DNA of 50,261 nucleotides from positions 1 to 50,261 of IMG/VR virus record IMGVR_UViG_3300037508_000928; one strand, given 5' to 3'. Below are positions 23,501-36,713 of this stretch, piece after piece. Position 1 is the first letter of the stretch; each line of letters starts with the position of its first letter. The notes beneath the pieces are model-generated. The model was not told where the DNA came from, did no database searches, and saw only the letters and a list, made by a program, of their open reading frames with translations. The position numbers were made by a program, and so were the translations under genes. This DNA is from a virus. Its lineage: Duplodnaviria > Caudoviricetes.

Positions 23501-26500
23501 ATGTCGAGGAAACTGCCGCCGATAAGGAAAAAGAGCGCGAGTCCGAGGTCAACGGCTTTGTGGTGAACGACATCATAGCCAAGCTGGTAAAGGCGGGGGT
23601 GAAGCGGGAAGAGATTGGCGTAATGGCCACGGCGAACACCGACGCTAAGAAGCAGGCCATATTCGACGGCATGAATTCTGGGTCAATTCGCATCCTGATT
23701 GGTAGCTCGCAGCGCATGGGCGTCGGCGTGAACGCCCAGGACAAGATGATAGCCCTGCACCATCTGGATACTCCGTGGTATCCAGCGCTGCTTGAACAGC
23801 GCGAGGGTCGTATCCTCCGCCAAGGGAATGAGAACCCAGAGGTAAAAATCTTCTCCTATGGAATGAAGAAGACGCTCGACTCTGCCATCTACTCCAAAGT
23901 GCTCTACAAATCAAAGTTCATCCAGCAGATTCTCAGTGGCAAGATGAATGATGATGAATTTGAAGACCCGGCTGGGCAGATTGTCGTCTCTATGGAAGAG
24001 GCGATGGCCGCATTTGCTGACGACCCGAGACTCTTCCGAAAGCTGGACATACAGAACGAACTACGCGATCTGGAAATCCGCCGACGTTCCTACCTCGACA
24101 ACGTGGTGCGCGCCAAAGAAAAGATAGCCGAGCTTGCACGCGGTATCGAATACTGGAACGCCCGCATTAAAGACGCGGCAGAAGCTATTCCTGGCTCCAA
24201 GGTAAGCGGCAACCCCACCATAACGGTGGACGGCAAAGACTACACGGCGAAGACGTTCAAGGACATCTTCGAGAAGCAGGTAGAGACTGTACCGGCGAAA
24301 CTTGCCGCCGACAACATCGCGGCGGCAGACAGCTATACAATACAGCAATGGGCAGAGGGTAAAGCTGAAAAGCCAGCAAGCGTCTTCCTTTATGGCGAGA
24401 TTGGTGGGAGCGATATTAAATTTGCCGTGGTCGCTGGGAGGGCTCCAGGACAGATTACTGATGGCGATTCGATAAAGACCGATTACTCCATACGCATTTG
24501 GACCCCCAGTGTCGGTGTGCGGTCGGAAGCGAAGAAGATCGAATCGTTCATCAACGCCTTGCAGGCAGTTGAACGTGAAACGCAGAAGAAACTGCGCGAG
24601 GCCCAGGATACGCTTGCGGCTAGGAAGCAAGACCTTTCTGTCGCTGAGGAGATGGCGAAGGGTAGAACCTTCCCACAGGAAGATGAATACCAGTCCTTGA
24701 AGAAGGAACTGGACGAATTAAATGAATCGCTGGCCAAGGCACAGGAACTGGACTCGGACGGCCCAGCGCCAGCCACGGCCATGGACCCGATTGGTGATCT
24801 CGCTCGGCTGCTGGATGCAGGGAAGCCGTTCGCCCAGGCTACCTACGAGCGGGCCAAGCCATACCTGCGGGCACTGTACGACGCGGCCAAGGACGCCAAG
24901 GCCTTCATCGCCACGGTGGTGAAGCAGATTGGCGAGCACGCCCGCCGCTATGCCACCAAGGCCGCAATCGAGTTTCGCCGCGCTGGGAACCGGGGGGCGG
25001 CGCTGAATCCGTTCGGTGAGAAGCCCAAGCCAAAGGTTACGCCCTCGGGCGCACCGCCTGTTGGGGAATTCCGCCAGGATGGCGACGACCCCGACCAGCC
25101 AGCACGCCTGCCCCAGTCCGCCATGCTGCGCATGGTCAAGAACCTTCTGGGGAACACGCCCGACATTGTGAAGCGTTTCCCGAGGAAGCCTGAAAGACTG
25201 GGCGTGTTCAATCATGGCTTAGGCGATGCCACTATCCGCCTGCGGGCTGACCTTGCCATTGGCGAGCGCGTATCTGAGAGCGTCTCGAAGAAGCCTTTCG
25301 GTGAAGATGAGAAATCCGACTTCATTGAGGCAGTGGCCGAGCAGCTTGACGTTTCCACTGACGAGATTGTGGTGCGCACCGAGACTGAGCGCTCGGGCGG
25401 TCGCACGGTATACGTCATGCGGGCCTACCTGCGCGACGAGGATTACGCCGCGCGCGTGTTCGCCCACGAGTTGGGGCACGCGATTGACTACCTGCCAGAC
25501 GGAACACTCAAGCGCGGCAATCTCCTTGGGCGCATTGCCAAGCTGCAAATGTACCTGAAGACGTCCCTGGCGCCTGATCCTGAATCGCTGGAGGAACCCT
25601 TCACGAAGCAGGAGCGCGCGAAGTGGCGCCGGGAGGCTGCTGCTGATGCAAAGCGGGACTATGGCCCGTTCGACAAAGACCAGAGCGATGAACGGTCCTT
25701 CTACACGAGGGAGTATTACAGGTATCGTCTCATTCAGGAAGCCGAAGATCGTGGGATGCTGCTGGAGAACGAGATCAAGTCTGCGATTCCGGGCGCATGG
25801 AAAGTAAAGTATCCCGGCGTCCGCGACGAACTAAAGGCACTCACCCACTGGTGGAACCCCTTCGACGCAGACCGTGACCCGAAGTACACCAAGTATCGGT
25901 ACTCTGGCAAGGAACTCTATGCCGAGGCCATGAGCGTGCTTCTCAACAATCCGCGCATGTTCGAGGCGAAAGCCCCTGAGTTTGCGCGCGGCTTCTTCGC
26001 CTACCTTGAGCGCAACCCCAAGGTGCAGGAACTCTATGAGCAGATTCAGACCGAACTCCACGGTGGGACCTTCGAGGGCACCGTGCTCGATGACCTGTAC
26101 GCCATGCAGGAGCGAGGCGAGATCAAGCGCAAGGCAAAGCACAAGCGCGATAAGCAGCCACTAAGCAAGCAGGTCAACGACTTCTTCCACGATCTGAAGC
26201 TCACCCTGATTGACCGGCAGGCAGATGTTTGGCGGACGGGCGATTCCTGGCTTGACCCCTACGTGTGGTTGCGGGAGATGAAATATCTCCACTCGTCTCA
26301 TCATGGGTTTCAGCGCGATATTCAGAAGATGGTATTGAACCCGCTCCGTGTTGTCGGGTTGAGCGAGAAAGACTTTGGCGTCTTCCTGTTCTTGCGCCGT
26401 ACCTCAACCGAGCGCAAATACCTATTCAACCCTATGGGCGTTACCGAGTCCGAATCTAAGAATTTGCTAGAGGAACTAGAGGGGCGCGTGGGTAGTGATG

Positions 26501-28620
26501 GAATGGATGCTCTGCGGAAGGCTGCCAACGAGTACCACGATTTGCGCAAGGAGTATGTTTTCCCGCTGCTTCGCAAATCACGGATATTCTCCAAGGAGAT
26601 GCTGGAGCTCATTGAGAGCAACGAGAACTACGCCACGTTCAACGTGATTGAATATATCGAGGAATTCTATTCCACGAAGTCAAACGCAGACAATGCTCGT
26701 ATCTTCCATCAGTTGGGCACACTGAAGGATGTCGAGAACGTCTTCGAGGCCACGATCCTGAAGGACATGGCTCTGATGCGGCAGGCCACGAAGAACAAGG
26801 CCAAGATGACGGTGATTGATGTCGGCAAAGACATGGGCGAAATCGAAGATGCCCCGATGCGCCGCAAGGCGGGTGGGGAGGCATTCTACGAAGAGCCGAA
26901 AGACCCGAACCTGACGGTCATGAAATACTCGCTGGACGGCAAGGTGCAGGCCGTTATCATCAACAAGGACATCGCACAGAATTACGAGAGTAATCTGGTC
27001 GAGATGAACAATTTCACCAACATCGTCCAGTCACTCTACTTCTCTGGCTGGTTCCGCAAGTCGCTCACCACATGGAACCCCGGCTTTGGCCCGATTGCTT
27101 TCGGGAAGGATGTCTGGGGCAGTTACAAGAACCTTCCTGGAAAGAACCCGCTCCGTACTATCGAGAGCCTTATCATGACGGCACGGGATGCCTACATTGA
27201 TGTTGCCTTAAAACAGTCCACGATGCTGACGCATTTCGCTTACAAGAACAACTTGCTGATCCCCGACATCTCCTACGACGCTGGAAGTGAACTTGATTAT
27301 GAGACGGAACTTGAGCGACAGACTTGGGTCCATGGGCTGATTGCTGATAAACACCCAAACAGAAACATTTTCTTGCGCACGCTCAAAAAGACGGGCGATA
27401 CAGTAGAAGCGTGGAACCTGTTCTTCGAGCGCTGGTCGAAACTGGCTGGCACCTACCGCATGATCAACGAAGGTTACTTCGAGCGGGAGGGTATGCAGGC
27501 CAGCCAGCGCATCCGCACACAAGCAGGCACTCCTGATGCGCTTGCTGGGGGCAAGTGGCGGCGCCCCATGAACGGCATATTCCTGTTCTCGAATATCGGG
27601 ATACAAGGCCTGGAGGCTACGTACCGGGCTGCCAAGGAACAGAAGCTGTCCTATCTGTTCAAGGTGGCTGCGGTCGATGTCGCTCCCAAGCTGCTGATGC
27701 GCGGCTTCCAAATGGGGCTGGCAGGCTGGCTGTTTGGGCTGGACGAGGAAGATGACTGGCTGAAGCGATTCTACAACGCGGTTCCCGACAGGGACATGGC
27801 GAACTACACTATCATCCCTCTTGGTTTCAGGAAGGATGGCACGCCGGTCTATATCCCACTTCCTTCAGACCACGTTGGCATGTTCTTCGGTGGGCTGGCA
27901 TGGGGCGTAACGCGCCCATTGGTCGATGAAAATATCGACATGAGCGAAATTGGACGCACGTTCGTAAACCAGAGCCCAATCAAGCCTGACGGATTGACGC
28001 TTCCTCCTGCGCTGGCCCTTGACCTCATGCTGCTGGCCACGGGGGTATCTCCCTACGACACGTGGCGTGGGACCCCTGCGATTAGCCGTGGTGCGATGGA
28101 TGCGGGTGTCGTTGCTCCCGCCATGCGAGGAGAGATTCCTCCCGCCGTCAAGGAAATAGCCTTGTACGAAGCACAGAAATACTTCAGCACGGTATTCGTT
28201 TTCAACAGCGATGCTGCAAAGGACGATATGTTTAACGAGATAGGGCGTATGCCGGTTGTCGGCCCCATCCTGCGTCGGTACGTTCGAGCCTCAGACAAGG
28301 GTATCGAGCAGCGCATGAGGCGGGAGAAGTCGAGCATCCTGGCCGAGCAGGCAGCGACTTCCGAGCAGATTGGCGGCATCATCACGAAGCAGATCAAGGC
28401 GGCTGGCCGGGGCGGGGACCGCATCGACGCCTGGCGCGAAGTGAACCGGCAGGTCCGAGAGGGGAAGTTGCTGTATGATGGCCACAACTGGCGCACGATG
28501 ACGGGGCTGGTGCAGCGGCGATTCAATCACGCTTGGACCATGACCTACGGCACGCCAGAAGAGAAGCTGAAGGCGACCACGAGCAAGGCGGTTCGGCGGG
28601 AAATGACGACCGACAACTGA
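14557..28620 (+). CDS. Giant (4687 aa) polyvalent internal virion protein: SLT transglycosylase, HExxH domains, N6-DNA methylase + SNF2 helicase (DarB-like), LPD38-like C-terminus
   Basis: SLT motifs AESNF/GVMQLMP/YNFG; ASHEIRH (~16597); VLEPGAGVGNF (~20100) and NVPF (20296); AHAVGAGKT (~22150), DEAH (~22654), QREGRILRQGN (~23800); FAHELGH (25465) with downstream ELYAE. Confidence 0.9.
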   Translation: MAKGDIVPIASVQQGGTATAPMESQTAKRRVPIESVADPVVSKVLAAAKRYNVNPTLATAVAKAESNFVQQSVSPVGATGVMQLMPGTAKDLGVDPWNEDQNIDGGVRYLGQMLERAGGDVDKALEYYNFGMGNVDAGKPLPAETVQYKARIKKLMGITDPPITAAQAEAIIPKQQSNFSKAMGMGDVQAPVGWQPTGEDVAAPVAAVQDALHAIPKFPGERALAAQGERYMEFLNPTTPAGPWERGFTQGATNAATQGNAVKRVVVGGLADAGSGLLSSVATLGADRKTADQIAADKAILSEASLETDKQNLGAVGRVLRPATQNAVSNIAQVGVASAGGFPVIATQFMTTSYDDGLRQAQAAGLQGEDMLNYARRQSLYEGGVMAAFQAVGLPGLEKLPFMAIAPAVVNQVKTSLAPAMKRTLMTFGQELPEETITWALQTADSQMSNVRKPMTTEEYTKEWLNLALETALSVGASSTRDLARGVRDSVVSDFSGIVQPDTFNPEMQLGGVLPQPAAEVPVEADIAASQQATTPESPIVDIPAGEANPEEPEQPKKKAKLIYADMPTEQLQSLLEQGGMANPVKVAIQRELANRIAPEQPVAPKQPWDMTREEYDQSRVDELNALNPQLGGRLKLEILSEEEQAQRPTLDSAPGAKSVGGHYGSTITRAQNAPSGTASHEIRHMIDLLLGGNQVTAYVNDLKTKFKDRFSLLTDYLKSARKDGKIGGRTTVDEETAQMVLHAFYKDREGLRSASPDIVQFLEEMGADKYSHLQDSHKSKVEQALRDGKPVPPAVLAEYPDLAEKYGKPTPGQQMLRRPVAERLVPELQRLHFPTTFTGQPTPGQQMLRRPQGEAPQDTLSQPETSEQVQGNTPAQADTPESTPIAAPVNQPLELQSPDAVRKAAAAPKIEELKRQYEEARLVNNVRDGLRIEAQLQGGPEFTDPAAQAAVKQQLVAVDQAISERRPVNAEAMRDWANVATSNGFDESGNIPRRGIPSGYAQDGDVYTFQLDSPTPGFLPQAQELANPNWNKPAAPDAKQQALKDAAQNLAAIEGKAEPVISAGQNTAFDKLTEKPKERKPWFESYEELSEHLATALPDHSVSHVGQSVSVYGKYNDQQLVKEWAEALPMRSDVDALVKKLRPQEQPVTDSAPAPTRAEKIAQRRARAKAELTSVPDVAPQTAGPRGQYAIPGEEETVRAQEQEVVDRAAFRDRVLSEFEDQELTDRIVTDLWPAARKAPEYIKKGMSIEETTTTIRNNTDETYLRDYPDLNENALLRVLDGHAEDIGAKDTAGFRRQVDNLQTMHPDLPRKSIERMVEAVDAGDARAVKAILHPGNPGSHDIFQAITGYELPSKSKRTQKAVHAIVDEWWGKLAPESRVPELELDTSLPREKYIKLFVDRDPAVQAAADDQVEDARHHAERVAEGRWLAANPKAPVDDMNGFLAGKIPMQAGNIKKQLAKTYNFNGTELQTYQSFIEKHWSDGSLIAQIYDDGETRQHIVNGYNLPKTAFDYAQHLLGDRAIQETPLQAKQAELRDLMQKIRNESQFNRKIELNQKINKVRSEIGELKRPDWVKDAIADTINTETPTDGREDIQGQPDEQPDVVGGTGAPRRDAAPSSGDSSGETGEAGGTAGSQDTAGDRRDIRPSTEGDELRGSGGAGKPGRTSPRVGSPRGTAGDSTERDGGTEAGGVQKGSNGVKAEKVDDGKRNHRIGEDDTIAPDGQISKIKANLRALRILKELDQQERDATPEEQKALAQYTGWGHSPQVFDEKKAQWFENEYPYSVSQRDTKWGDKFYQHYKEAKELLSRSEWMAGLKSTQYAHYTAKNVVQSMWKIAERLGFSGGRVLEPGAGVGNFLGLMPDGFKGTTFVAVELDDTSGRILQKLYPKAKIFIKGFQDAKIPPNSVDLVITNVPFSSNGPKDTPYPTLNLHNYFFARSLDVLKPGGIVVAISTHYTMDANPKQREFLASKGNLVGAIRLPNNAFKKNAGTDVTTDIIIMQKPTQNFTKGESWAALANVGTDDAPIMVNEYFAAHPEMVLGTHSMEGSMYGGDGKEYTVLPTGDDLTEQIRAAIEKLPEGIVGAHVADDIDFGAIDEAAGEKEGSFHVKGGKVVRVESGSFVDAELSADLQARAKGFIGLRDHYIKHLALMRKPETTDEQFADSMAELNRLYDAYAKKHGGVNEKNTRPFRSDPGYFLLAGTEKVTTTINPLTKRKLETTSKGDVYSKRTIDPSVRPTKAGNAEDALRISLTYRGQIDSDYMAQLTGESAEDTLAELSSSGLIFINPENGLAELSAFYLSGNVKKKLAIAKDAGEDYKANVEALEKVQPSRVPYSKIKPQLGATWIPSTLVQEFADKVLGRGFGAIKVSYLGKAADAWLIETKGSGAKRDFLGPRGLQEFAVIEKSKTNPDAPGYMRRHALDVLNGVLNLKDLIIKDEVEDKKYVTNEEMTRVARIKAEQLKEAFITWINSNPDRMLAIEDAYNELYNFYVPPVYDGSHLVLPGKSNTVKLYDHQYNAIWRMIVERRGMVAHAVGAGKTFEIIGACMEMRRLGISKKPMIVVQNSTMEQYARSFTKLYPSANVLVADVESLKKNKRKQFLAHIAASDYDAVIIAQSQFDRLPSDPVTETTVTQKLIDELRISHNELKEAEGERSQSVKQLAKSIEKLEDRLSKITASMKGRQDDVIYFESLGVDTLFIDEAHNYKKPPFVTKMPSLLGLNKDSSDIATNLMLKAHYIRHINAGKGVFLATGTPVTNTLGEAWHMLNLTSPDVLAEFNAETFDRFASTFAKRTVEWSQNAGGSWVPKSALTRFTNGQELIKLIRSQWDVLMKDDLDEQMIAAGKDMPKLEGGAPKIISVEATPRVKEFSDWATRVYQDFTKLTGEAKQEFGYIPVMLYGAMKAVATDSRLVDPTAPDEAGSKVNVMLKNVIEIYDDTKKNKSTQMIFCDMFNPFKMDKLHAFAGGIKDDDADGDIILNDGEDVEETAADKEKERESEVNGFVVNDIIAKLVKAGVKREEIGVMATANTDAKKQAIFDGMNSGSIRILIGSSQRMGVGVNAQDKMIALHHLDTPWYPALLEQREGRILRQGNENPEVKIFSYGMKKTLDSAIYSKVLYKSKFIQQILSGKMNDDEFEDPAGQIVVSMEEAMAAFADDPRLFRKLDIQNELRDLEIRRRSYLDNVVRAKEKIAELARGIEYWNARIKDAAEAIPGSKVSGNPTITVDGKDYTAKTFKDIFEKQVETVPAKLAADNIAAADSYTIQQWAEGKAEKPASVFLYGEIGGSDIKFAVVAGRAPGQITDGDSIKTDYSIRIWTPSVGVRSEAKKIESFINALQAVERETQKKLREAQDTLAARKQDLSVAEEMAKGRTFPQEDEYQSLKKELDELNESLAKAQELDSDGPAPATAMDPIGDLARLLDAGKPFAQATYERAKPYLRALYDAAKDAKAFIATVVKQIGEHARRYATKAAIEFRRAGNRGAALNPFGEKPKPKVTPSGAPPVGEFRQDGDDPDQPARLPQSAMLRMVKNLLGNTPDIVKRFPRKPERLGVFNHGLGDATIRLRADLAIGERVSESVSKKPFGEDEKSDFIEAVAEQLDVSTDEIVVRTETERSGGRTVYVMRAYLRDEDYAARVFAHELGHAIDYLPDGTLKRGNLLGRIAKLQMYLKTSLAPDPESLEEPFTKQERAKWRREAAADAKRDYGPFDKDQSDERSFYTREYYRYRLIQEAEDRGMLLENEIKSAIPGAWKVKYPGVRDELKALTHWWNPFDADRDPKYTKYRYSGKELYAEAMSVLLNNPRMFEAKAPEFARGFFAYLERNPKVQELYEQIQTELHGGTFEGTVLDDLYAMQERGEIKRKAKHKRDKQPLSKQVNDFFHDLKLTLIDRQADVWRTGDSWLDPYVWLREMKYLHSSHHGFQRDIQKMVLNPLRVVGLSEKDFGVFLFLRRTSTERKYLFNPMGVTESESKNLLEELEGRVGSDGMDALRKAANEYHDLRKEYVFPLLRKSRIFSKEMLELIESNENYATFNVIEYIEEFYSTKSNADNARIFHQLGTLKDVENVFEATILKDMALMRQATKNKAKMTVIDVGKDMGEIEDAPMRRKAGGEAFYEEPKDPNLTVMKYSLDGKVQAVIINKDIAQNYESNLVEMNNFTNIVQSLYFSGWFRKSLTTWNPGFGPIAFGKDVWGSYKNLPGKNPLRTIESLIMTARDAYIDVALKQSTMLTHFAYKNNLLIPDISYDAGSELDYETELERQTWVHGLIADKHPNRNIFLRTLKKTGDTVEAWNLFFERWSKLAGTYRMINEGYFEREGMQASQRIRTQAGTPDALAGGKWRRPMNGIFLFSNIGIQGLEATYRAAKEQKLSYLFKVAAVDVAPKLLMRGFQMGLAGWLFGLDEEDDWLKRFYNAVPDRDMANYTIIPLGFRKDGTPVYIPLPSDHVGMFFGGLAWGVTRPLVDENIDMSEIGRTFVNQSPIKPDGLTLPPALALDLMLLATGVSPYDTWRGTPAISRGAMDAGVVAPAMRGEIPPAVKEIALYEAQKYFSTVFVFNSDAAKDDMFNEIGRMPVVGPILRRYVRASDKGIEQRMRREKSSILAEQAATSEQIGGIITKQIKAAGRGGDRIDAWREVNRQVREGKLLYDGHNWRTMTGLVQRRFNHAWTMTYGTPEEKLKATTSKAVRREMTTDN
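16982..17112 (+). repeat. ~35-bp imperfect direct repeat x2, encoding PTPGQQMLRRP twice
   Basis: agccgactcccggcca(g/a)ca(a/g)atgctgcgcaggccg at 16982 and 17078. Confidence 0.85.
19325..19657 (+). CDS. Nested overprinted gene (+1 frame) in the giant ORF; TnpV/DUF1896-like helical protein
   Basis: GGAG at 19311-19314 then ATG 19325. The 110-aa product looks globular and amphipathic, while the host frame here is low-complexity G/S/D/R/T linker. Confidence 0.7.
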   Translation: MDAKIFKDSLTNSPMWWEALAHLEEMQPRLLETLLAKPEKLVELLDHRTQQAIDAIYDLQQKGMSYEEAAERVSPDVLRPGWEAQGGLPEIPLNGMGERKLAAFRKAAME

Positions 28621-28797
28621 TACCTCAAAAGTACCAATTGACGGTAAAAAGGGCACGATTTGAAATGTAAATCCAGTGTTTCCGTAGGGTAAGCTATACT
28701 GCGTCAACATCATGTCAAGAGTCTCCTATACTGTAAGTGTTTGCAGCACAACACTTAAAGAATCGCCTTGACGTACCTGATACCATAACGATACCAT
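28619..28797. other. Putative attP region
   Basis: AT-richer intergenic region before the integrase. TACC-core repeat pairs at 11-bp spacing at both ends (28619/28630; 28779/28790). Palindrome TAAGTGTT-N8-AACACTTA (28734-28757) with IHF-like CAA-N4-TTA. Confidence 0.5.
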
Positions 28798-28832
28798 CCT
28801 GCCAGCTTAATCGCGTTGATTTTGGAGGCAAT

Positions 28833-29885
28833 ATGGCTATCAAGAAGGCAGTCGAATACCGGGGAGTCACGCTCTCCAAGCCGAAGGGGAGCAAGTTCTA
28901 CTCGATGCGCTGGCGCAATGCGGCAGGCCAGCAGGTGCGCCGCTCGACGGGGACATCTGACCCGGCGCTGGCCAAGCAGATTCGAGACTCCCTGGCGGAA
29001 CAGCTTCTCCGCTCGCGCTTCAACATCGAGCCCACGGCGAAGGACTTCACTCCTGACGACGCTTGGGACTTCTACATTGAGCACCAGTCCGAAGTGTCCG
29101 AGAGGACGCTCTATCACGCGCTTAGTGCCTGGAGGCGCTTCTGGAAGGTGACGGGCTCACCTACGCTGGCTTCCGTGCAGCCAGTTGACATCCTTCGCTT
29201 CCAGAAGCTAATGCAGGCCGAGGGGCGAAAGCCCAGCTACGTGAACAACATCATGCGGGTTGTCTCATCGGTCTACGTCAAGTTGGTGCGCTGGGGGGAA
29301 CTCACTTGCGCCAATCCCTTTGCCGCTGTGGACAGGGTAAAGGAAGGAGCGCCCGCCCCGAAGTATCGCCCGTGGCCAGAAGTCGAGGCGATGCTCACCG
29401 TGGCGAAGAAGCAGGGCGACGACATCTACCTGTTTTGCATCCTGTGTTCTCATGCCGGAGCCCGCCACGGGGAGGCTATCGCCAGTCGGTGGGAAGATGT
29501 TGGATGGGAAAACGGCAGCTTCCGCATCCGTGGAACAAAGACGCGGGGGAGTGCAGCCACAATCCCGCTCCACGACGCGCTACGGGCTGCGCTGTGGCCT
29601 TATCGCAAAGAGAGCGGGTACATCGTGGCAAATGGCACCGACGCCCATCCTGACCCACTACGCCCTCACGCGCGCTGGGGGTATCAGTCACGCTGGGAGA
29701 CATTGGTGAAGGCAACCGGATTCAAGGGGTCGCCGCACACCCTTCGCCACTCGTTTGCAACTCACTTGCTCGAACTGGGATATGACCCAGTGTTGCTTGT
29801 GAAGCTGATGCGGCATACGAATCTGGCGATGACTTCGCACTACGCAAACCTGCTGGCCGTCGTCCCCACGATGGACAGATTCTAA
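28833..29885 (+). CDS. int: Tyrosine integrase
   Basis: GGAGG RBS before ATG 28833; N-terminal arm-binding 'RRSTGT'; catalytic R (GARHGE), K (GTKT), HTLRH, RHT and HY. Confidence 0.95.
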   Translation: MAIKKAVEYRGVTLSKPKGSKFYSMRWRNAAGQQVRRSTGTSDPALAKQIRDSLAEQLLRSRFNIEPTAKDFTPDDAWDFYIEHQSEVSERTLYHALSAWRRFWKVTGSPTLASVQPVDILRFQKLMQAEGRKPSYVNNIMRVVSSVYVKLVRWGELTCANPFAAVDRVKEGAPAPKYRPWPEVEAMLTVAKKQGDDIYLFCILCSHAGARHGEAIASRWEDVGWENGSFRIRGTKTRGSAATIPLHDALRAALWPYRKESGYIVANGTDAHPDPLRPHARWGYQSRWETLVKATGFKGSPHTLRHSFATHLLELGYDPVLLVKLMRHTNLAMTSHYANLLAVVPTMDRF

Positions 29886-29903
29886 GGTGATGGTTTGCCA
29901 CTG

Positions 29904-29937
29904 AACATCTTGACGATGTTTTTATTCTCGTGATACT
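29904..29937 (+). promoter_or_regulatory. Putative promoter with palindromic operator
   Basis: TTGACG(29910)-N16-GATACT; AACATC-N5-GATGTT palindrome over the -35 box. Confidence 0.4.
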
Positions 29938-30017
29938 GTGAGCATTAGGCAGGTGCGAGTCGCGCGGGGAAGTTGCCTGCGCCAATGATCTCGCATATTC
30001 ATTAATTAGAGGTGTTC

Positions 30018-30179
30018 ATGATGGAAACCATTATTCTTAAATGGTTGGCAGAATCATGCCCAAACCCCCCCGCAGTAAACTACGAGCGGGCTGAAGAATC
30101 ATGCCCAAACCCGCCCGCAGTAGACTACGAGCGGGCTGAAGAGGCTGGGAAGCATTTGTTGGTGCTGGAGAAGGATTAG
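30018..30179 (+). CDS. 53-aa microprotein with a 15-aa tandem repeat (not in ORF track)
   Basis: GAGGTG RBS; MMETIILKWLAESCPNPPAVNYERAEESCPNPPAVDYERAEEAGKHLLVLEKD; stop overlaps the stop of the convergent peptide gene. Confidence 0.45.
   Translation: MMETIILKWLAESCPNPPAVNYERAEESCPNPPAVDYERAEEAGKHLLVLEKD
30050..30142. repeat. 45-bp tandem duplication, each unit containing a hairpin
   Basis: agaatcatgcccaaaccc(c/g)cccgcagta(a/g)actacgagcgggctga x2, 2 mismatches. Confidence 0.9.
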
Positions 30180-30316
30180 GAATCCTTGCCGGTGCCCTTC
30201 GACTGACAGATGTAGATGTACTCTCCATCATCGCCAGCGATCTTCCCGACAATGAGCGCCTGGACTGCGTTGCATTCAGCGATCTTCGGAATGGTGAGTG
30301 TCTTGACGTGCTTCAT
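30176..30316 (-). CDS. 46-aa peptide with leader-like N-terminus (not in ORF track)
   Basis: Strong RBS AAGGAG-N6-ATG; MKHVKTLTIPKIAECNAVQALIVGKIAGDDGEYIYICQSKGTGKDS; GC3-rich codons; 53 nt downstream of the repressor gene. Confidence 0.8.
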   Translation of the reverse strand: MKHVKTLTIPKIAECNAVQALIVGKIAGDDGEYIYICQSKGTGKDS

Positions 30317-30369
30317 TGAAGTCTCCTTGTTGTGACAAGTGTAGTACAGATACCACCCAGCCGCAAGGT

Positions 30370-30750
30370 TTATTCTGCCTGCTTGCGAATCTCAGCTTCG
30401 TAACCGCGCGCGTAGTTCGTGACAAAGCCAAGAAAGCGGTTGGCCACGAACTCGTCACTCATGTCGCTGAATATCAATTCCGTAAGCAGCCGCATCTCTT
30501 CACCCAGCATACGTCGGGGCTCCGATACTCGCTTCGTACTTACTTGAGGTAGGTCTACCCAGTAGTCGTGCTCGCGCAGCCACTCTTCAAGCGCTTCGCG
30601 GTATTCCACGCCGAGCGGCCCGCCAGACATGAACGTCGAAAATGTCTGGCGGCTGCATCCGATAGCCTCTGCGATTTCATATCGTCGATGCTTTCGGATG
30701 GCCACCTGCGCATATTTTCTGAGCGCCTGCTTGTAATCTTCTTCATCCAT
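30370..30750 (-). CDS. Putative immunity repressor (XRE-like HTH)
   Basis: HTH pattern RYEIAEAIGCSRQTFSTFMSG; divergent from the early promoter and HTH genes; near the integrase. Confidence 0.7.
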   Translation of the reverse strand: MDEEDYKQALRKYAQVAIRKHRRYEIAEAIGCSRQTFSTFMSGGPLGVEYREALEEWLREHDYWVDLPQVSTKRVSEPRRMLGEEMRLLTELIFSDMSDEFVANRFLGFVTNYARGYEAEIRKQAE

Positions 30751-30785
30751 TAAGTCAATACCTTTCAACAACTTACACCGTATAA

Positions 30786-30868
30786 GCACGTACTCACACG
30801 TACAAACGCGAAAATGTGCTTGACAATACACGTACAAACGATTACTATTCGGCCATTGGAGGCCGTAC
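30786..30868 (+). promoter_or_regulatory. Rightward early promoter with repeated operators
   Basis: TTGACA(30820)-N17-TACTAT(30843). ACACGTACAAACG at 30796 and 30828 (the latter in the spacer). Further CGTAC cores near 30789 and 30864. Confidence 0.75.
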
Positions 30869-30869
30869 A

Positions 30870-31166
30870 TTGATTATACACCAAGAATCACCGACTTATC
30901 CGGCGAATGAGAAAATATTTAACGTAAAGTCACTGGCGCAACACCTTGACATCTCGCGCGATGCCGTTCGGCGCCTTGTTGCCGAGGGTATGCCGCACCT
31001 TCGTATCGGCTATCGCACTGTGCGCTTTGATCTGCCTACCGTCATGGCGTGGCTGGACAAGCGCAAGCAAATCTCCCTCTCTGAGTGTGCCAAGGGTGCC
31101 TCCCCTTGCACACGCTCTCTCCCGGCTGGCACCGAAGGCGCCCCCTCCCTCGGTGCCAGCTCATGA
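30870..31166 (+). CDS. Excisionase/Cro-like HTH (HTH_17/AlpA-like)
   Basis: GGAGG RBS then TTG 30870; 'VKSLAQHLDISRDAVRRLV.EGMPHLRIG..VRFD...V.AWL'. Confidence 0.75.
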   Translation: MIIHQESPTYPANEKIFNVKSLAQHLDISRDAVRRLVAEGMPHLRIGYRTVRFDLPTVMAWLDKRKQISLSECAKGASPCTRSLPAGTEGAPSLGASS

Positions 31167-31438
31167 TTACCAAGTACCTCTCTGTCCGTGATGTGGCAAC
31201 CGCGCTTTCGATGACGAGCGCTGGCGTCATAGCCATGATTCACGAAGGGGTGTTCGATAGCGCCTTCCGCACCGGCGACCACAAGCGTTGCCCGTGGAAG
31301 ATTGCCCGCGACGAAGTTGACTCCTTCATTGCCAATCGCCAGGAAGCTGCTCGCCGGGAGATCAACCTGCGGCGCACGGGGCAGGCGATGGCCAGCCAGA
31401 TACTCCGCGAACTCGAACGACCTCGCCGGTCGGCTTAA
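31163..31438 (+). CDS. Second excisionase-like HTH protein
   Basis: ATGA-coupled; 'YLSVRDVATALSMT...V..MIHEG...WKIARDEVDSFI'. Confidence 0.75.
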   Translation: MITKYLSVRDVATALSMTSAGVIAMIHEGVFDSAFRTGDHKRCPWKIARDEVDSFIANRQEAARREINLRRTGQAMASQILRELERPRRSA

Positions 31439-31509
31439 TCCCCTCAACGTATCGAGGGGAGAACCCCTTTGATGACATCACTTTAGCGTGTTAATAGCTT
31501 AGGAGAAAC

Positions 31510-31719: not shown

Positions 31720-33042
31720 ATGGCGGTAACAATCAACAGTCTCCAACTGGAGAACGTCAAGCGCGTTAAGGCCTTCGCGCTTGAACCGAACAAGACAGGC
31801 TTGACCATCATTGGTGGCAAGAACTGTGCGGGCAAGTCTACCGTGCTGCACATCGCTGCATGGCTGCTGGGCGGTGGCAAGTTTGCGCCGAGCAATCCCC
31901 AGCGAGACGGGGCAATGAACCCGCCAGCCATGAACATGACGTTGAGCAACGGCCTCGTGGTGGAGCGCAAGGGCAAGAACGCGACCTTGAGCGTGACTGA
32001 CCCGTCTGGCAAGCGCCACGGGCAGCAGTTGCTGGACTCGTTCGTGTCCACCTTCGCGCTGGACCTGACGAAGTTCATGAACGCCAATGACAAGGAGAAG
32101 GCGCAAATCCTTCTGCAAATCCTTGGCATCGGTGATGCACTGCGCAGCCTCGACGAAGTGGAACAGCGCCTGACTGCCGACCGGCGCGCCTTCTACCCTT
32201 TGAAGGAATCGAAGGTGAAGCACGCCGCTGAACTTCCCGAGTTTGCTGACGCGCCCCCCGAGCACATCAGCATGTCTGAACTCATCCAGCAGCAGCAGGC
32301 CATCTTCGCAAAGAACGGCGAGAACCAGCGCCTGCGCCAGAAGCGCGAGCGGCTTGAACTCGACCTTGGAATCGTGAACGAGCAAATCATGGAACTTGCC
32401 GCGAAGCTGCAAGAGCGGCGGGAGTTTGCAGCCCAGGTGGTTGCTGACCTCGAAACTGCGGCGAAGAGCACTGCCCAGCTTCAGGACGAGAGCACGGCAG
32501 AGATTGAATCCAGCTTGGCCAACATCGAGAACCTGAACGCCCAGGTGTCTGCCAACGAGGCGAAGGCCAAGGCCATCGAGGAAGCGGCAGAGTTTGAGCG
32601 GAAGTACGACGAGCTTGGTCGTGAAGTCGCGGACGTTCGGACGAAGCGCATGGAATTGCTAAACGGCGCGGAACTTCCGCTCCCCGGCCTGACCGTCGAG
32701 GAAGGCATCTTGCTTTACCAGAACAAGGCTTGGGACTGCATGAGTGGCGCGCAGCAACTTCAGGTGGCCGTGGCCATCGTGCGGAAGCTGAACCCCGAGT
32801 GCGGGTTTGTGCTCATCGACAAGCTGGAACAGTTCGACACGGACACGCTGGAAACATTTGGCAACTGGCTTGTCGAGCAGGAACTTCAAGCAATCGCCAC
32901 GCGCGTAAGCACGGGCGAGGAATGCACGATCATTATCGAGGACGGCTTGCCTGCGGGACAGACTTACATCGAGACGGTTGCGCCGATTCCTGCCGCTGCT
33001 GCCGTGGCTGACAACAAGTGGGGAGACGACAAATGGGACTGA
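31720..33042 (+). CDS. SMC/SbcC-like coiled-coil ATPase
   Basis: Walker A GKNCAGKS, long coiled coil, signature MSGAQ, Walker B VLIDKLE. Confidence 0.85.
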   Translation: MAVTINSLQLENVKRVKAFALEPNKTGLTIIGGKNCAGKSTVLHIAAWLLGGGKFAPSNPQRDGAMNPPAMNMTLSNGLVVERKGKNATLSVTDPSGKRHGQQLLDSFVSTFALDLTKFMNANDKEKAQILLQILGIGDALRSLDEVEQRLTADRRAFYPLKESKVKHAAELPEFADAPPEHISMSELIQQQQAIFAKNGENQRLRQKRERLELDLGIVNEQIMELAAKLQERREFAAQVVADLETAAKSTAQLQDESTAEIESSLANIENLNAQVSANEAKAKAIEEAAEFERKYDELGREVADVRTKRMELLNGAELPLPGLTVEEGILLYQNKAWDCMSGAQQLQVAVAIVRKLNPECGFVLIDKLEQFDTDTLETFGNWLVEQELQAIATRVSTGEECTIIIEDGLPAGQTYIETVAPIPAAAAVADNKWGDDKWD

Positions 33043-34067
33043 ATGTTACGAGCGGCGTAATGCACAAGCCGGGGAAGTTCGTGTTTCACGGGCCCGCTGG
33101 ATTGGGGAAGTCCACCTTGGCCGCGCAGTTTCCAAATCCGGTGTTCATCGACACCGAGGAAGGGACACAGCAAATGAACGTAAGCCGTCTGGACCGGCCA
33201 ACAAGCGTTCCCCACTTCATTGGCATGATTAACTCGCTCACGAAGGATCATCAAGGATTCAAGTCGCTCATCATCGACACGCTGGACTGGTTGCAAGACC
33301 TGTACATCAGCAGCGCCCTTGCCCAAACAGGCCTGAAGGTGATGGGCTGGACGAAGGACGACAACGCCTACACGCTGCTTTACCAAGAATGGAATCAGAT
33401 GCTGGATGCGCTCAGTGAATTGCGCAACAGCGGCATGATCATTGTCCTGGTGGCACATTCCGAAGTGAAGAAGCGCGAGGTGCCAGAGGAATTCGGCGCC
33501 TACGACCGATACCAGTTGAAGCTGCTCAAAGGTGCTGCGGCCAAAACTTGCGAGTGGGCCGAGTACCTTTGGTTCATCAACATGCGGATTGAGGTGGTGA
33601 AGAGCGGCGACGGCAAACATGCCCCCATGAAAGCCACTGGGGGAGAGCGCGTCATCTATACGGGACAGCATCCTTGCTGGGATGCAAAGAGCCGCCCAAC
33701 AGTTCCTCCAGTCCCTGCGGAAATCGTGTTTCGTGACGGCAAGATGCCTGACGTCATGCGCGATCTCATCAAGCAGCAGTTGGCTGGAGCGCAAGCCCCC
33801 GCCCCTGCTGCACCTGCCCCTACGCAGAAGCCAGTCATGCACGTGTCCGCTGGCAAGGAACCGAGCAAGGCGCTCTATCAGTTGCTGGACCTGATGGAGC
33901 AAGACGCCGTGACGGGCGATCAGCTTATCGCAGAAATCAGCAGCAAGGGTTATTTCCCTGCCGACACACCCGTTGATGGGCTGGGGGACGATTTCCTGAC
34001 CGAGAAGCTGATACCCAACTGGAAAAATGTCGTGAAGAAGATCAAGGGAGAACCTGCCAATGTCTGA
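33033..34067 (+). CDS. Sak4-like (AAA_24) ssDNA-annealing ATPase
   Basis: HGPAGLGKST, FIDTEEG, IIDTLDW, LVAHS and WDAKSR motifs. Confidence 0.85.
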   Translation: MGLNVTSGVMHKPGKFVFHGPAGLGKSTLAAQFPNPVFIDTEEGTQQMNVSRLDRPTSVPHFIGMINSLTKDHQGFKSLIIDTLDWLQDLYISSALAQTGLKVMGWTKDDNAYTLLYQEWNQMLDALSELRNSGMIIVLVAHSEVKKREVPEEFGAYDRYQLKLLKGAAAKTCEWAEYLWFINMRIEVVKSGDGKHAPMKATGGERVIYTGQHPCWDAKSRPTVPPVPAEIVFRDGKMPDVMRDLIKQQLAGAQAPAPAAPAPTQKPVMHVSAGKEPSKALYQLLDLMEQDAVTGDQLIAEISSKGYFPADTPVDGLGDDFLTEKLIPNWKNVVKKIKGEPANV

Positions 34068-34593
34068 CACGGGAAGAGCATACGACTGGGACGATACGGT
34101 TGAAAACCCAAACGAGGGTGGTGGCGACTTTGTGTTGCTGCCTCCTGGTGAATATCCATTCAAGGTGGTGAAGTTTGAACGGGGGCAGTATGCGCCGTCT
34201 GCGGATAGCAAGACCCCAGCCTGCAAGAAGGCAATTTTGACGCTTGAAATTGACGGTGGGGGACATGGGACCACGAGCTTGACCGTGGACATGATCCTTC
34301 ACTCCAACTTCGAGTGGAAGCTGTGCCAGTTCTTCAAGGCCATTGGGGACCGTAAGAGTGGTGAACCCCTGACCATGAACTGGAAGGCGGTGATCGGCAA
34401 GTCTGGCCGCTTCAAGCTGAAGCATCGCGTTGGCACAGGGCAGTACAAGGACAAGAAGTACAACGAAGTTGATAAGTACCTCGACCCTCTTGACCCACCA
34501 ACCACAACCGCTGCTGCGTTCCCGGCACAGGAGCCACCTGCTTGGAACCCCGAAGAATACATGGCTGCCCCGGCGAGCGATGGTTGGGACTGA
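34060..34593 (+). CDS. Phage ssDNA-binding protein (DUF669-like)
   Basis: 'LLPPGEYPFKV...WKLCQFFKAIG...YNEV'; follows Sak4; acidic tail. Confidence 0.8.
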   Translation: MSDTGRAYDWDDTVENPNEGGGDFVLLPPGEYPFKVVKFERGQYAPSADSKTPACKKAILTLEIDGGGHGTTSLTVDMILHSNFEWKLCQFFKAIGDRKSGEPLTMNWKAVIGKSGRFKLKHRVGTGQYKDKKYNEVDKYLDPLDPPTTTAAAFPAQEPPAWNPEEYMAAPASDGWD

Positions 34594-34886
34594 TGGATTG
34601 GATCAATCTCTGGGAGTGGGTGCAGGACATAGAGCCTGAGCAGCTTCCAGAAGTGCCGTGGGAGTACCTGCCGGGGCGAGTGATAACGGACAACAAGGCA
34701 TTCGCTGAGTATGCCAGTAACGTTTGCCGCCCCGGCGATGGAGCCGAGCGTTCAGGGAGAGCGCAAGAAATGATGCGCGCCTTACATCGTGTGATTCAGA
34801 AGAAAGAGTACACCTGCCCCGTATGGGGACGGGAATGGATGGAGCGACAGAATGCAAAGCGTAATGCAAAGTGTAATAAGCGCTGA
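34593..34886 (+). CDS. Hypothetical protein
   Basis: TGATG-coupled start (MDWINLWEW...). Confidence 0.55.
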   Translation: MDWINLWEWVQDIEPEQLPEVPWEYLPGRVITDNKAFAEYASNVCRPGDGAERSGRAQEMMRALHRVIQKKEYTCPVWGREWMERQNAKRNAKCNKR

Positions 34887-34896
34887 GAGCAAAGGC

Positions 34897-36498
34897 ATGA
34901 ACCTGCGCCCCTACCAGGTTGAGTCCGCTTTTGCCATTCGCAAAGAGTGGCGGAAGGGCAATAAGCGCACGTTACTGGTGCTCCCAACAGGCACAGGCAA
35001 GACCATCGTGTTCTCGGCGGTAATCCGCGACGAGGTACGCGAGGGCGCTCGCTGCCTAATCCTTGCACACCGAGGGGAACTGCTCGACCAAGCTGCAGAC
35101 AAGCTGAAGAAGTCCACAGGCTTGGGTTGCGCCGTTGAGAAGGCTGACGTTACTTGCAAGGGGGAATGGTTTCGTGTTGTCGTGGGCTCGGTTCAAACCA
35201 TGATGCGCCAGAAACGGCTCGACACGTTTCCCAATGATTACTTCGATGTCATCATTGTGGACGAGGCCCACCACGTCCTGGCCGACAGCTATCAGCGCAT
35301 TCTCAACTACTTTGAGAATGCGAAGGTGCTGGGTGTTACAGCGACCCCTGACCGGGGGGACATGCGGGAACTGGGGGAGTTCTTCGACAGCTTGGCCTAC
35401 GAATACACGCTGCCGAAGGCGATCAAGGAAGGATTCCTCTGCCCTATCAAGGCCTTGACAATCCCCATCAAGATTGACTTAGGCGCCGTTGCCGTGCGCG
35501 CTGGGGACTTTCGCGCCGAAGATGTCGGCTCCGCTCTGGACCCCTACCTGCACCAGATAGCCGACGAGATGACTACGCATTGCCGGGGACGCAAGACAGT
35601 GGTATTCCTGCCACTGATTGCCACAAGCCAGAAGTTTTGCAACATCCTGGCCGACAAGGGATTCCGCGTGGCCGAGGTCAATGGGCAGTCCTTTAACCGC
35701 AAGCAAATACTGGACGACTTTCAAGAGGGCAGCTTCGATGTGCTCTGCAACTCGATGTTGCTGACCGAGGGCTGGGATTGCCCTACAGTAGACTGCATCG
35801 TTTGCCTGCGGCCTACGAAGATTCGCTCACTCTACTGCCAGATCGTCGGACGCGGTACTCGTATCCTCCCCGGCAAGGACCATTTGCTTTTGCTCGACTT
35901 CCTCTGGCTCTCCGAGCGCCACGAGCTTTGCAGGCCTGCGCACCTGCTGGCGCCGGATAAGGACGTGGCGGACATGATGACAAAGAACATAGCCGCTGCC
36001 GGGACTCCGGTAGACCTCGAAGAAGCCGAGGAACAGGCTATCTCCGACTCGATTGCCGAGCGTGAAGAAGCACTAGCCAAGAAGCTGGCAGAGCAACGCG
36101 GCAAGAAACTGAAGCTGGTAGACCCACTTCAATTTGAGATGTCCATTCATTCCGAAGAGCTCGTGAATTATGTGCCCGCCTTTGGTTGGGAGAGCAAACC
36201 GCCCACTGAGAAGCAGCGCCGCGACCTTGAAACGGCTGGTATCTTCAGCGCGGAGATAGACCACGCTGGCAAGGCAGAGAAGCTGCTGGAGACGGTAGCA
36301 GCACGGCGCCGGGACGGACTGACCACGCCAAAGCAGATACGGTTCCTCGAAGGCAAGGGATTCCGTGATGTGGGGACATGGGAATTCGACGCGACTAAGA
36401 AGCTGATTGACCGGATTGCAAGCAACAACTGGAAAGTGCCCTACGAGATTAACCCCCGCGACTACCGCCCTGTTCCAACACGAGAGATGGCGTTCTGA
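34897..36498 (+). CDS. SF2 (DEAH, ResIII-like) helicase
   Basis: LRPYQ, PTGTGKT, DEAHH, TATP, TEGWD and QIVGRGTR motifs. Confidence 0.92.
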   Translation: MNLRPYQVESAFAIRKEWRKGNKRTLLVLPTGTGKTIVFSAVIRDEVREGARCLILAHRGELLDQAADKLKKSTGLGCAVEKADVTCKGEWFRVVVGSVQTMMRQKRLDTFPNDYFDVIIVDEAHHVLADSYQRILNYFENAKVLGVTATPDRGDMRELGEFFDSLAYEYTLPKAIKEGFLCPIKALTIPIKIDLGAVAVRAGDFRAEDVGSALDPYLHQIADEMTTHCRGRKTVVFLPLIATSQKFCNILADKGFRVAEVNGQSFNRKQILDDFQEGSFDVLCNSMLLTEGWDCPTVDCIVCLRPTKIRSLYCQIVGRGTRILPGKDHLLLLDFLWLSERHELCRPAHLLAPDKDVADMMTKNIAAAGTPVDLEEAEEQAISDSIAEREEALAKKLAEQRGKKLKLVDPLQFEMSIHSEELVNYVPAFGWESKPPTEKQRRDLETAGIFSAEIDHAGKAEKLLETVAARRRDGLTTPKQIRFLEGKGFRDVGTWEFDATKKLIDRIASNNWKVPYEINPRDYRPVPTREMAF

Positions 36499-36713
36499 TG
36501 GATTGGCACACAGGCTATGAGGTTGACATGCCCACGCCTGGGACGCCCATGCAGGATTACACGGTCAGACAATTACTACAAGCTCTAAGCGATGCGGAGG
36601 CGAAACAAAAGGTTGCAGTAAAAGGCAAGCGCTGGGATAGCTCTGTAAGAATAGCGCAACGACAAATCCGGCTGGCAATAGAACTAGAAATGAAAACAAG
36701 AGGCTCAGATTGA
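36498..36713 (+). CDS. Hypothetical protein
   Basis: Coupled at both ends; 71 aa; lower GC than neighbours. Confidence 0.55.
   Translation: MDWHTGYEVDMPTPGTPMQDYTVRQLLQALSDAEAKQKVAVKGKRWDSSVRIAQRQIRLAIELEMKTRGSD

What the first reader, a model, noticed from the sequence alone, without database searches (positions are those of the whole stretch)
30176..30316. Leader-bearing 46-aa peptide behind the repressor: candidate phage signalling or RiPP-mimic peptide
Seen: strong RBS, a basic N-terminus MKHVKTLTIPKIA, then a core with two Cys (ECNAVQ...YICQSK) able to form one disulfide, co-oriented just after the repressor. From memory, unverified: the MKH(I/V)KT start resembles SCIFF/ranthipeptide leaders and a family of short MKHV- peptides in Ca. 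Hydrogenedentes genomes, which may also point to the host. No modifying enzyme or exporter is encoded here. Inference: a lysogen-expressed peptide using host processing/export, conceptually like arbitrium AimP but without an RRNPP/TPR receptor; it could act in lysis-lysogeny communication or exclusion.
Basis: partly seen in the sequence, partly recalled or inferred. Interest (0 to 1): 0.8.

Follow-up and report, generated by a model that had tools for sequence, protein, structure and literature searches.

The report
Orphan mini-protein gene behind phage repressor
A real 46-codon gene sits just after the repressor gene of an uncultured lake-water phage and belongs to a very rare family of tiny two-cysteine proteins, but nothing tested supports the idea that it is a secreted signal or a modified peptide, so it is most simply an accessory gene of the lysogeny operon whose role is still unknown.

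Summary
The ORF is exactly as described: 30176-30316, minus strand, 46 aa, AAGGAG six bases before the ATG, Cys15 and Cys37, 53 nt after a 126-aa HTH repressor-like gene on the same strand. It is a real gene. Its codon-usage score of 22.6 was reached by 0 of 47 spurious ORFs. A full HMMER scan of 1.84 billion proteins found six small homologues and a profile search found one more.

All eight members are 42-52 aa, start MKH[IV] and keep A13, C15, G24, A27, Y33 and C37. Only the tail after C37 is variable.

The signalling/RiPP reading is not supported:
- No signal peptide or membrane segment.
- Two cysteines, not six, and no match to the SCIFF model or any NCBIfam, Pfam or PADLOC family.
- No radical-SAM enzyme, exporter or TPR receptor in the phage.

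I could not fetch the gene neighbourhoods of the homologues, so linkage to repressors and the host taxon remain untested. A sequence look-up of earlier scan notes found nothing similar.

Best reading: a cytoplasmic accessory protein of the immunity operon, in the slot where lambda keeps rexAB. Interest is modest.

The parts
30176..30316 (-). 46-aa mini-protein gene (stop included). Residues M1 K2 H3 A13 C15 G24 A27 Y33 C37 are invariant in the 8-member family.
   Evidence: ORF; codon usage; homologues and alignment A3
30323..30328 (-). Shine-Dalgarno AAGGAG, 6-nt spacer to the ATG
   Evidence: 8 of 1539 ATG triplets in the window have this hexamer in that position
30317..30369 (-). 53-nt spacer between the repressor stop and the mini-protein start. 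No terminator-like site. A weak 4-5-bp hairpin abuts the SD.
30370..30750 (-). 126-aa HTH repressor-like gene, first cistron of the leftward unit
   Evidence: weak HTH and repressor matches; one homologue, 56% identity, HTH block invariant; low-confidence all-helical model
30796..30840 (.). Two exact 13-bp direct repeats ACACGTACAAACG (30796-30808, 30828-30840), probable operators
   Evidence: family D9
30820..30848 (+). Promoter-like site TTGACA-17-TACTAT for the rightward early operon, overlapped by the second repeat
30018..30179 (+). Convergent 53-aa ORF of uncertain reality. Its stop overlaps the mini-protein stop. It contains the in-frame 45-bp tandem repeat.
   Evidence: codon score 9.05 over 53 codons, ambiguous; no family
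30050..30142 (.). 45-bp tandem repeat, 2.1 copies, 95% matches. Each copy holds an imperfect palindrome. Possibly a protein-binding or att-associated site.
   Evidence: contigs of public runs break here
28737..29885 (+). Tyrosine integrase, convergent with the repressor/mini-protein unit
   Evidence: PF00589, E=1.1e-21; phrog_1, E=8.1e-54

Best explanation
The ORF is the second and last cistron of the phage's leftward immunity unit (repressor, then mini-protein).

Proposed mechanism:
1. It is transcribed together with the repressor, so it is made in lysogens.
2. It is translated efficiently from its own strong Shine-Dalgarno site into a soluble 46-residue cytoplasmic protein.
3. It acts inside the cell by binding a protein partner. 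It is not secreted, not inserted in the membrane and not enzymatically matured.
4. Its most likely job is that of genes found in the same slot in other temperate phages (lambda rexAB; sie and other accessory genes between int and the repressor): protecting or modifying the lysogen, for example by excluding other phages.

Shown: the gene is real, the family is conserved, the placement is as described, and export signals, membrane segments and phage-borne maturation genes are absent.

Inferred: co-transcription with the repressor, expression in lysogeny, a protein partner, and the exclusion or host-modifying role.
For: Real gene:
- Codon score 22.6, reached by 0 of 47 spurious ORFs.
- AAGGAG with a 6-nt spacer, found before 8 of 1539 ATGs in the window.
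- Seven small homologues at 47-59% identity, with nine invariant positions spread over residues 1-37.

Placement:
- Same strand as the HTH repressor-like gene, 53 nt downstream, with no terminator-like site between.
- Together with the short cluster at about 40-41.8 kb, the pair is one of only two leftward gene sets in a genome otherwise read rightward.
- It lies between the integrase and the operator/early-promoter region.

Not exported: no hydrophobic stretch. The best 19-residue Kyte-Doolittle mean is 0.15-1.12 across the 8 members, and all are hydrophilic overall.

No maturation or receptor genes in the phage:
- The 36 ORF products scanned with Pfam gave only integrase, HTH, AAA, SLT, SNF2/ResIII, RusA and a weak capsid match.
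- Radical_SAM PF04055 and TIGR03974 gave no match in six frames, while controls rang in 14 of 14 genomes.

The kind of gene is known:
- A prophage-encoded small protein, DicB, protects against phage infection (PMC6832061, title and abstract start seen in the listing).
- That lambda keeps rexAB downstream of cI is recalled knowledge.
Against: - No expression data. Transcription with the repressor is inferred only from geometry, and the promoter scan found no leftward promoter at all in 29800-31200.
- No phenotype, partner or fold is known. The AlphaFold2 model is weak (mean pLDDT 64.6) and found no fold neighbour.
- Linkage to repressors in other genomes could not be tested.
- One weak hint speaks against tight linkage. 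The only homologue of this repressor is on record on a 49,884-bp contig. No listed homologous peptide is on record on a contig longer than 21,784 bp. So no listed family member was called on that contig, although an uncalled or more divergent copy is not excluded.
- An invariant His3 and two invariant Cys are not explained by a plain 'binding protein' reading.
Confidence: 0.5

Rival explanations
1. Switch modulator. The mini-protein binds the repressor, or a host protease or regulator, and tunes the lysis-lysogeny decision. It would work in the manner of small phage proteins that stabilise or antagonise repressors, such as small antirepressors, or lambda CIII as recalled.
For: It is adjacent to and co-oriented with the repressor-like gene. 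Small antirepressor proteins as output of phage decision systems are described (bioRxiv 10.1101/2025.11.23.689978, abstract start seen in the listing). The weak model shows a short amphipathic helical hairpin, which would suit a binding module (low confidence).
Against: An antagonist of the repressor would not be expected in the same transcript as the repressor. There is no sequence relation to any known family. The hint from contig lengths that the one related repressor is not accompanied by a listed family member applies here too.
Confidence: 0.2
2. The product is a precursor peptide that host enzymes process or modify (RiPP-like) and/or that is released as a phage communication signal. The conserved first 37 residues would be the pro-region and the variable tail the specific part.
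For: The N-terminus is the most conserved part and the tail the least: mean pairwise identity 0.60, 0.47 and 0.25. The two Cys are invariant.
Against: - No signal peptide or membrane segment.
- Two Cys, not six, and no match to TIGR03973 or to any NCBIfam model in 7 of 7 members scanned.
- No radical-SAM gene, exporter or TPR receptor in the phage.
- The strict family pattern is absent from one genome each of 185,579 species. That does not fit a chromosomal RiPP family whose host maturase the phage could borrow.
- To my knowledge no phage precursor matured by host enzymes is known (recalled, not searched).
Confidence: 0.07
3. Metal- or redox-binding mini-protein. The retained N-terminus Met-Lys-His has the form of an amino-terminal Cu/Ni-binding (ATCUN, X-X-His) site. 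His3, Cys15 and Cys37 could hold a metal or form a redox switch, linking the lysogen's state to metal or oxidative stress.
For: H3, C15 and C37 are invariant in 8 of 8 members, while most other positions vary. Position 29 of the alignment is acidic in 7 of 8 members (alignment printed). That X-X-His with a free amino terminus defines ATCUN, and that Met is retained before Lys, is established knowledge (recalled).
Against: This is inference from three residues only. There is no metal-binding family match. The model gives the N-terminus pLDDT below 50.
Confidence: 0.08
4. Not a functional gene: a chance ORF in the spacer between the repressor gene and the att/integrase region.
For: It is short, has no known family and has no expression data.
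Against: Codon usage is as good as in real genes, with 0 of 47 spurious ORFs as high. It has a strong SD. It has seven homologues of the same length with conserved start, Cys and Tyr positions.
Confidence: 0.03

Closest known systems
Accessory genes of the immunity operon or int-repressor interval of temperate phages (lambda rexA-rexB downstream of cI; sie genes between int and the repressor in lactic-acid-bacteria phages). Recalled knowledge.
   Same: Position and orientation: directly after the repressor gene on the same strand, next to the integrase, with no terminator-like site between. Expected expression in lysogens.
   Different: It is a single 46-aa soluble protein. RexB and Sie proteins are membrane proteins, and RexA is about 280 aa. 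There is no sequence relation (PHROGs, PADLOC). No phenotype is known.
DicB, a 62-aa small protein of a cryptic E. coli prophage that protects against phage infection (PMC6832061; title and abstract start seen in the listing)
   Same: A prophage-borne small soluble protein that acts by binding host proteins. It shows that proteins of this size can give exclusion.
   Different: No sequence similarity was found by any search. DicB is not part of a repressor operon of this type. The function here is untested.
Arbitrium AimP (PMC6458997 and PMC6536502; abstracts seen in the listing)
   Same: A short ORF placed just after a phage regulator gene. The C-terminal end differs between relatives.
   Different: AimP is secreted and processed to a hexapeptide, and it follows the receptor AimR, which I recall as a TPR protein of about 380 aa. 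Here there is no signal peptide. The upstream gene is a 126-aa HTH protein, and no TPR protein was found among 36 ORF products.
SCIFF / ranthipeptide precursors (TIGR03973; PMC8326336, passages on SCIFF read)
   Different: SCIFF has six Cys in forty-five residues, is widespread in Clostridia and is matured by a radical SAM enzyme (CteA with CteB; PMC8326336). Here all 8 members have 2 Cys. There is no match to TIGR03973 and no radical SAM gene in the phage.

Membership tests
SCIFF / ranthipeptide precursor | Six cysteines in about 45 residues | tested here: not met
   All 8 family members have exactly 2 Cys.
SCIFF / ranthipeptide precursor | Match to the curated model TIGR03973 (six_Cys_in_45) | tested here: not met
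   No match in six frames of the window at E<=10. NCBIfam scan: 0 families for 7 of 7 members at E<=10.
SCIFF / ranthipeptide precursor | Cognate radical SAM/SPASM maturase next to the precursor | tested here: not met
   PF04055 and TIGR03974 gave no match in the window at E<=1. PF04055 scored over its cut-off in 14 of 14 control genomes; TIGR03974 gave only sub-threshold matches there. A host-encoded maturase cannot be tested because the host is unknown.
RiPP precursor in general | Conserved leader, variable core, and linkage to a modifying enzyme in relatives | tested here: inconclusive
   Identity falls from 0.60 (residues 1-16) to 0.47 (17-37) to 0.25 (tail), but both Cys and Y33 in the supposed 'core' are invariant. 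The neighbourhoods of relatives could not be fetched.
Arbitrium AimP | N-terminal secretion signal | tested here: not met
   Best 19-residue Kyte-Doolittle mean is 1.03 for the window's protein. The longest run without charged residues or His is 10 residues.
Arbitrium AimP | Gene follows a TPR-type AimR receptor | tested here: not met
   The upstream gene encodes a 126-aa HTH protein. There was no TPR match among 36 ORF products scanned.
Arbitrium AimP | Mature C-terminal hexapeptide released and sensed | not testable with these tools
   This needs peptidomics. Only the variability of the tail is seen.
Lysogeny-operon accessory gene (rexAB-type slot) | Directly downstream of the repressor gene, same strand, no terminator between | tested here: met
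   53-nt spacer, same strand, and no terminator-like site on that strand between the genes.
Lysogeny-operon accessory gene (rexAB-type slot) | Expressed in the lysogen | not testable with these tools
   No RNA run was listed among the holders, and no host or lysogen is known.
Lysogeny-operon accessory gene (rexAB-type slot) | Gives exclusion, defence or another lysogen phenotype | not testable with these tools
   PADLOC gave 0 families for the gene, two homologues and its neighbours. A phenotype needs an experiment.

The most novel reading that the evidence does not exclude
The family is a phage-borne pro-peptide. A conserved 37-residue N-terminal part with invariant His3, Cys15 and Cys37 would be recognised by host machinery. 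A hypervariable hydrophilic tail would carry phage-specific information, in the way the variable mature ends of Phr/AimP pro-peptides do. It would be released without a Sec signal. This would be a peptide signal or host-matured RiPP made from the immunity operon of a phage, with no receptor or maturase of its own.
Probability: 0.06. Interest if true: 0.8.

Novelty: new member of a known kind. Interest (0 to 1): 0.3.

Why it matters
If the best reading holds, this adds one more unnamed small protein family to the accessory genes that temperate phages express from their immunity region. That slot has repeatedly yielded exclusion and defence functions. Its interest lies in three points:
- It is extremely rare: 8 distinct sequences among the billions searched.
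- It has a sharp conservation pattern (Met-Lys-His start, two Cys, one Tyr).
- It is small, which makes it cheap to test.

It does not open a long-standing question. The more exciting reading, phage communication or a host-matured peptide, has no positive support.

Tried and rejected
Neighbourhoods of the homologues (the key test) could not be obtained.
- A degenerate DNA pattern built from the invariant codons matched the window once, with 0 expected by chance. It matched nothing in viral contigs, metagenome contigs or genome contigs.
- The two-sequence alignment A2 found nothing in metagenome contigs (169 pattern hits, none confirmed) or viral contigs (10 hits, none confirmed).

Relatives of the neighbouring genes.
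- Repressor: none in viral contigs or genome contigs (330 pattern hits, none confirmed).
- Integrase: none in viral contigs.
- AAA protein: 5 loci, L002-L006, at 52-53% identity. These are low-GC phages with unrelated lysogeny modules (ORFs of 4 of the 5 listed), so they are uninformative.
- Terminase: two related phage fragments, G001 and G002, at 76% identity. G001 ends inside its integrase, so its immunity region is not covered. The family and repressor profiles found nothing in either. This is no evidence of absence.

Other searches for relatives.
- The word-index search with the single peptide found only itself.
- tblastn against phage records found nothing for P0001 and P0003. For P0008 and P0002 it gave only chance-level hits at E=2 and E=6.
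- tblastn against plasmids gave a Vibrio hit at E=0.5. It lies inside a 160-aa ORF. Profile comparison gave 7.8% probability, so I rejected it as chance.
- P0004, a 671-aa repeat protein with 7 matched stretches, was dropped from the family as a spurious low-complexity match.

Structure.
- The peptide model has pLDDT 64.6. Foldseek found 0 matches in PDB. In BFVD it found 9 matches at E<=10 and 0 at E<=0.001.
- The pdb_via_wide library was not available.
- Profile searches of PDB sequences gave nothing significant: best E 0.71 for the peptide and 0.074 for the repressor.
- The repressor model has pLDDT 52 and was not searched further.

Complex of repressor and peptide: no verdict, score 0.02 against a mark of 0.32. 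This is no evidence either way.

Expression: no RNA holder was listed among 18 runs.

Variation for a selection test: contigs of 4 lake-water runs, laid over 28600-31500, showed no differences, joints or host junctions. So no dN/dS and no att site could be derived.

Other negative results.
- The protein atlas gave no usable look-alike for the peptide or the 53-aa ORF.
- Rfam gave 0 matches and the tRNA scan found 0 genes in the window.
- A literature search with peptide prefixes returned only noise, so I make no claim about what is or is not in print.
- Paper supplements were not consulted.

Full report
**What is there.** The window is a complete IMG/VR virus record of 50,261 bp (CheckV 100%). 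Nearly all long ORFs read rightward.

Reading from left to right around the finding:
- a 4,687-aa gene
- a tyrosine integrase at 28737-29885, plus strand (PF00589 E=1.1e-21, phrog_1 E=8.1e-54)
- a 53-aa plus-strand ORF with an in-frame 45-bp tandem repeat
- on the minus strand, the 46-aa ORF (30316-30176), preceded by a 126-aa HTH gene (30750-30370)

Across a 13-bp exact repeat (30796-30808 and 30828-30840) and a TTGACA-17-TACTAT site (30820-30848) the rightward early operon starts. It encodes two HTH_17 excisionase-like proteins, a phrog_1499 ATPase, a Sak4-like protein, a helicase and a primase. This is a classical divergent immunity region. The 126-aa protein matches only weak HTH and 'transcriptional repressor' profiles, so calling it the repressor rests mainly on this architecture.

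- AAGGAG lies at 30323-30328, six bases before the ATG. Only 8 of 1539 ATG triplets in the window have that hexamer so placed, and only 2 of 31 long ORFs have a six-base SD.
- A codon log-odds score trained on 16 long genes gives 22.6. Forty-six-codon windows of real genes average 17.7 (sd 8.5, n=247). None of 47 out-of-frame ATG ORFs of 40-60 aa reaches it. The other ORFs overlapping this stretch score negative.

**A family exists, and it is tiny.**
- The word-index search found only the protein itself.
- HMMER against all 1.84 billion representatives found 8 proteins at E<=0.001. They were the query, six proteins of 42-52 aa at 50-59% identity (E 5e-9 to 4e-4), and a 671-aa repeat protein that I dropped as spurious.
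- A profile search of the 5.8-billion set added one more, P0009.
- Each member is a singleton cluster seen on 1-4 contigs from metagenome sources. The longest contigs are 50,496 bp (ours), 21,784 and 7,975 bp. The rest are under 2.2 kb.

In the 8-row alignment M1, K2, H3, A13, C15, G24, A27, Y33 and C37 are invariant. Mean pairwise identity is 0.60 for residues 1-16, 0.47 for 17-37 and 0.25 for the tail after C37. So the protein is conserved over 37 of about 45 residues, with a variable hydrophilic Lys/Gly-rich tail.

**What it is not.**
- No member matches Pfam (0 of 8), NCBIfam (0 of 7 scanned) or PADLOC (0 of 3 family members scanned). PHROGs gives only chance-level hits, best E=0.024.
- The SCIFF model TIGR03973 finds nothing in six frames of the window at E<=10. 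[quoted passage not shown] Here every member has two Cys.
- The phage has no radical SAM gene: PF04055 and TIGR03974 found nothing, with controls positive in 14 of 14 genomes.
- None of 36 ORF products scanned with Pfam is a maturase, exporter or TPR protein.
- There is no signal peptide or membrane segment. The best 19-residue hydropathy mean is 1.03 and the longest uncharged run is 10 residues in the window's protein. The other members are similar.

AimP, by contrast, is secreted and follows its receptor AimR (abstracts of PMC6458997 and PMC6536502). The strict family pattern is absent from one genome each of 185,579 species and from 2.9 million viral contigs. That fits a rare mobile or viral gene rather than a chromosomal peptide-natural-product family.

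**Structure.** AlphaFold2 on the 8-row alignment gives a weak model (mean pLDDT 64.6): residues 1-16 without regular structure, then helices at 17-26 and 30-40. By eye the alternating pattern around Y33-C37 would also suit a beta-hairpin. The fold is therefore open. No fold or sequence neighbour was found in PDB or BFVD.

**What could not be tested.** The decisive evidence would be what lies next to the seven homologues, and it was out of reach. Pattern and alignment scans of the three collections found none of them.

The repressor has a single homologue (56% identity, longest contig 49,884 bp). It too is absent from the searchable collections. No listed peptide is on record on a contig that long, which hints weakly that that phage lacks a called family member.

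Two related phage fragments found through the terminase (76% identity) are collinear with the window. One of them ends inside the integrase, so its immunity region is missing.

The phage DNA is held by lake-water metagenome runs. Eighteen were listed, and six hold half or more of the sampled words. Contigs of four runs are identical to the window over 28600-31500. There is no variation to measure selection, no host junction and no RNA run. The host, and thus the Hydrogenedentes idea, stays unknown.

**Reading.** The simplest account that fits all of this is a soluble, cytoplasmic mini-protein made from the distal cistron of the immunity transcript. It lies in the slot between repressor and integrase, where temperate phages commonly keep genes that serve the lysogen. 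Lambda rexAB is recalled; accessory loci highly expressed in lysogeny and the small protective prophage protein DicB are from the listing. Earlier notes of this scan on other genomes describe similar 'rexAB-slot' cassettes. They are unchecked leads and share no sequence with this one.

I put 0.5 on this reading. The alternatives:
- 0.2 that the protein instead tunes the switch itself
- 0.08 that the His/Cys triad marks a metal or redox role
- 0.03 for a non-functional ORF

The remaining 0.12 is not assigned to any named reading. The complex prediction with the repressor gave no verdict and counts for nothing.

**Verdict.** The signalling, RiPP and SCIFF parts fail every feature that could be tested. 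It is a new, unnamed member of a known kind of gene, and interest is modest.

Noticed in passing
window 30050-30142: A 45-bp tandem repeat (2.1 copies, 95% matches) lies 165 bp after the integrase stop. Each copy contains an imperfect palindrome of about 22 bp (CCCGC...GCGGG arms around GTAnACTAC). It lies in frame inside a 53-aa ORF with its own GAGG site and an ambiguous codon score. It may be a protein-binding or att-associated DNA element rather than, or as well as, coding sequence. Assemblies of public runs break exactly here.
   Followed up: partly
window 30176-30179: The stop codons of the 46-aa gene (minus strand) and the 53-aa ORF (plus strand) overlap (TTAG), with no terminator-like site on either strand. 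A leftward immunity transcript would therefore run antisense into the 53-aa ORF and the integrase gene.
   Followed up: no
window 30786-30848: An exact 13-bp direct repeat ACACGTACAAACG occurs twice, 32 bp apart. One copy lies in the spacer of the rightward TTGACA-17-TACTAT promoter-like site and one just upstream of it. They are probable operators of the 126-aa HTH protein.
   Followed up: partly
window 1-785 and 49145-50260; G001 (L009/L010): In the related phage fragment G001 the genes at the window's two ends are adjacent and collinear. The window is therefore a complete, circularly closed or permuted genome. G001 and G002 share 76% terminase and 84% capsid-protein identity with it.
   Followed up: partly
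window 14557-28620: A single 4,687-aa ORF (28% of the genome) has an N-terminal SLT lytic transglycosylase domain and an SNF2/ResIII helicase region. G001 has a collinear but partly divergent counterpart: the best aligned segment is 64% identical over 1,304 aa.
   Followed up: no
window 30235-30307: Inside the 46-aa gene there is a 31-nt imperfect direct repeat (71%) spaced 42 nt apart. It corresponds to the two 'K-I-A' motifs at residues 11-13 and 25-27. This may be a trace of an internal 14-residue duplication, but it is seen only in this member.
   Followed up: no
window 31720-39115; L002-L006: The replication module (phrog_1499 ATPase, Sak4-like protein, helicase, phrog_2597 primase) has its nearest IMG/VR relatives, at 52-53% identity, in low-GC phages. 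Their lysogeny and structural genes are unrelated, which is a sign of module exchange across distant hosts.
   Followed up: no
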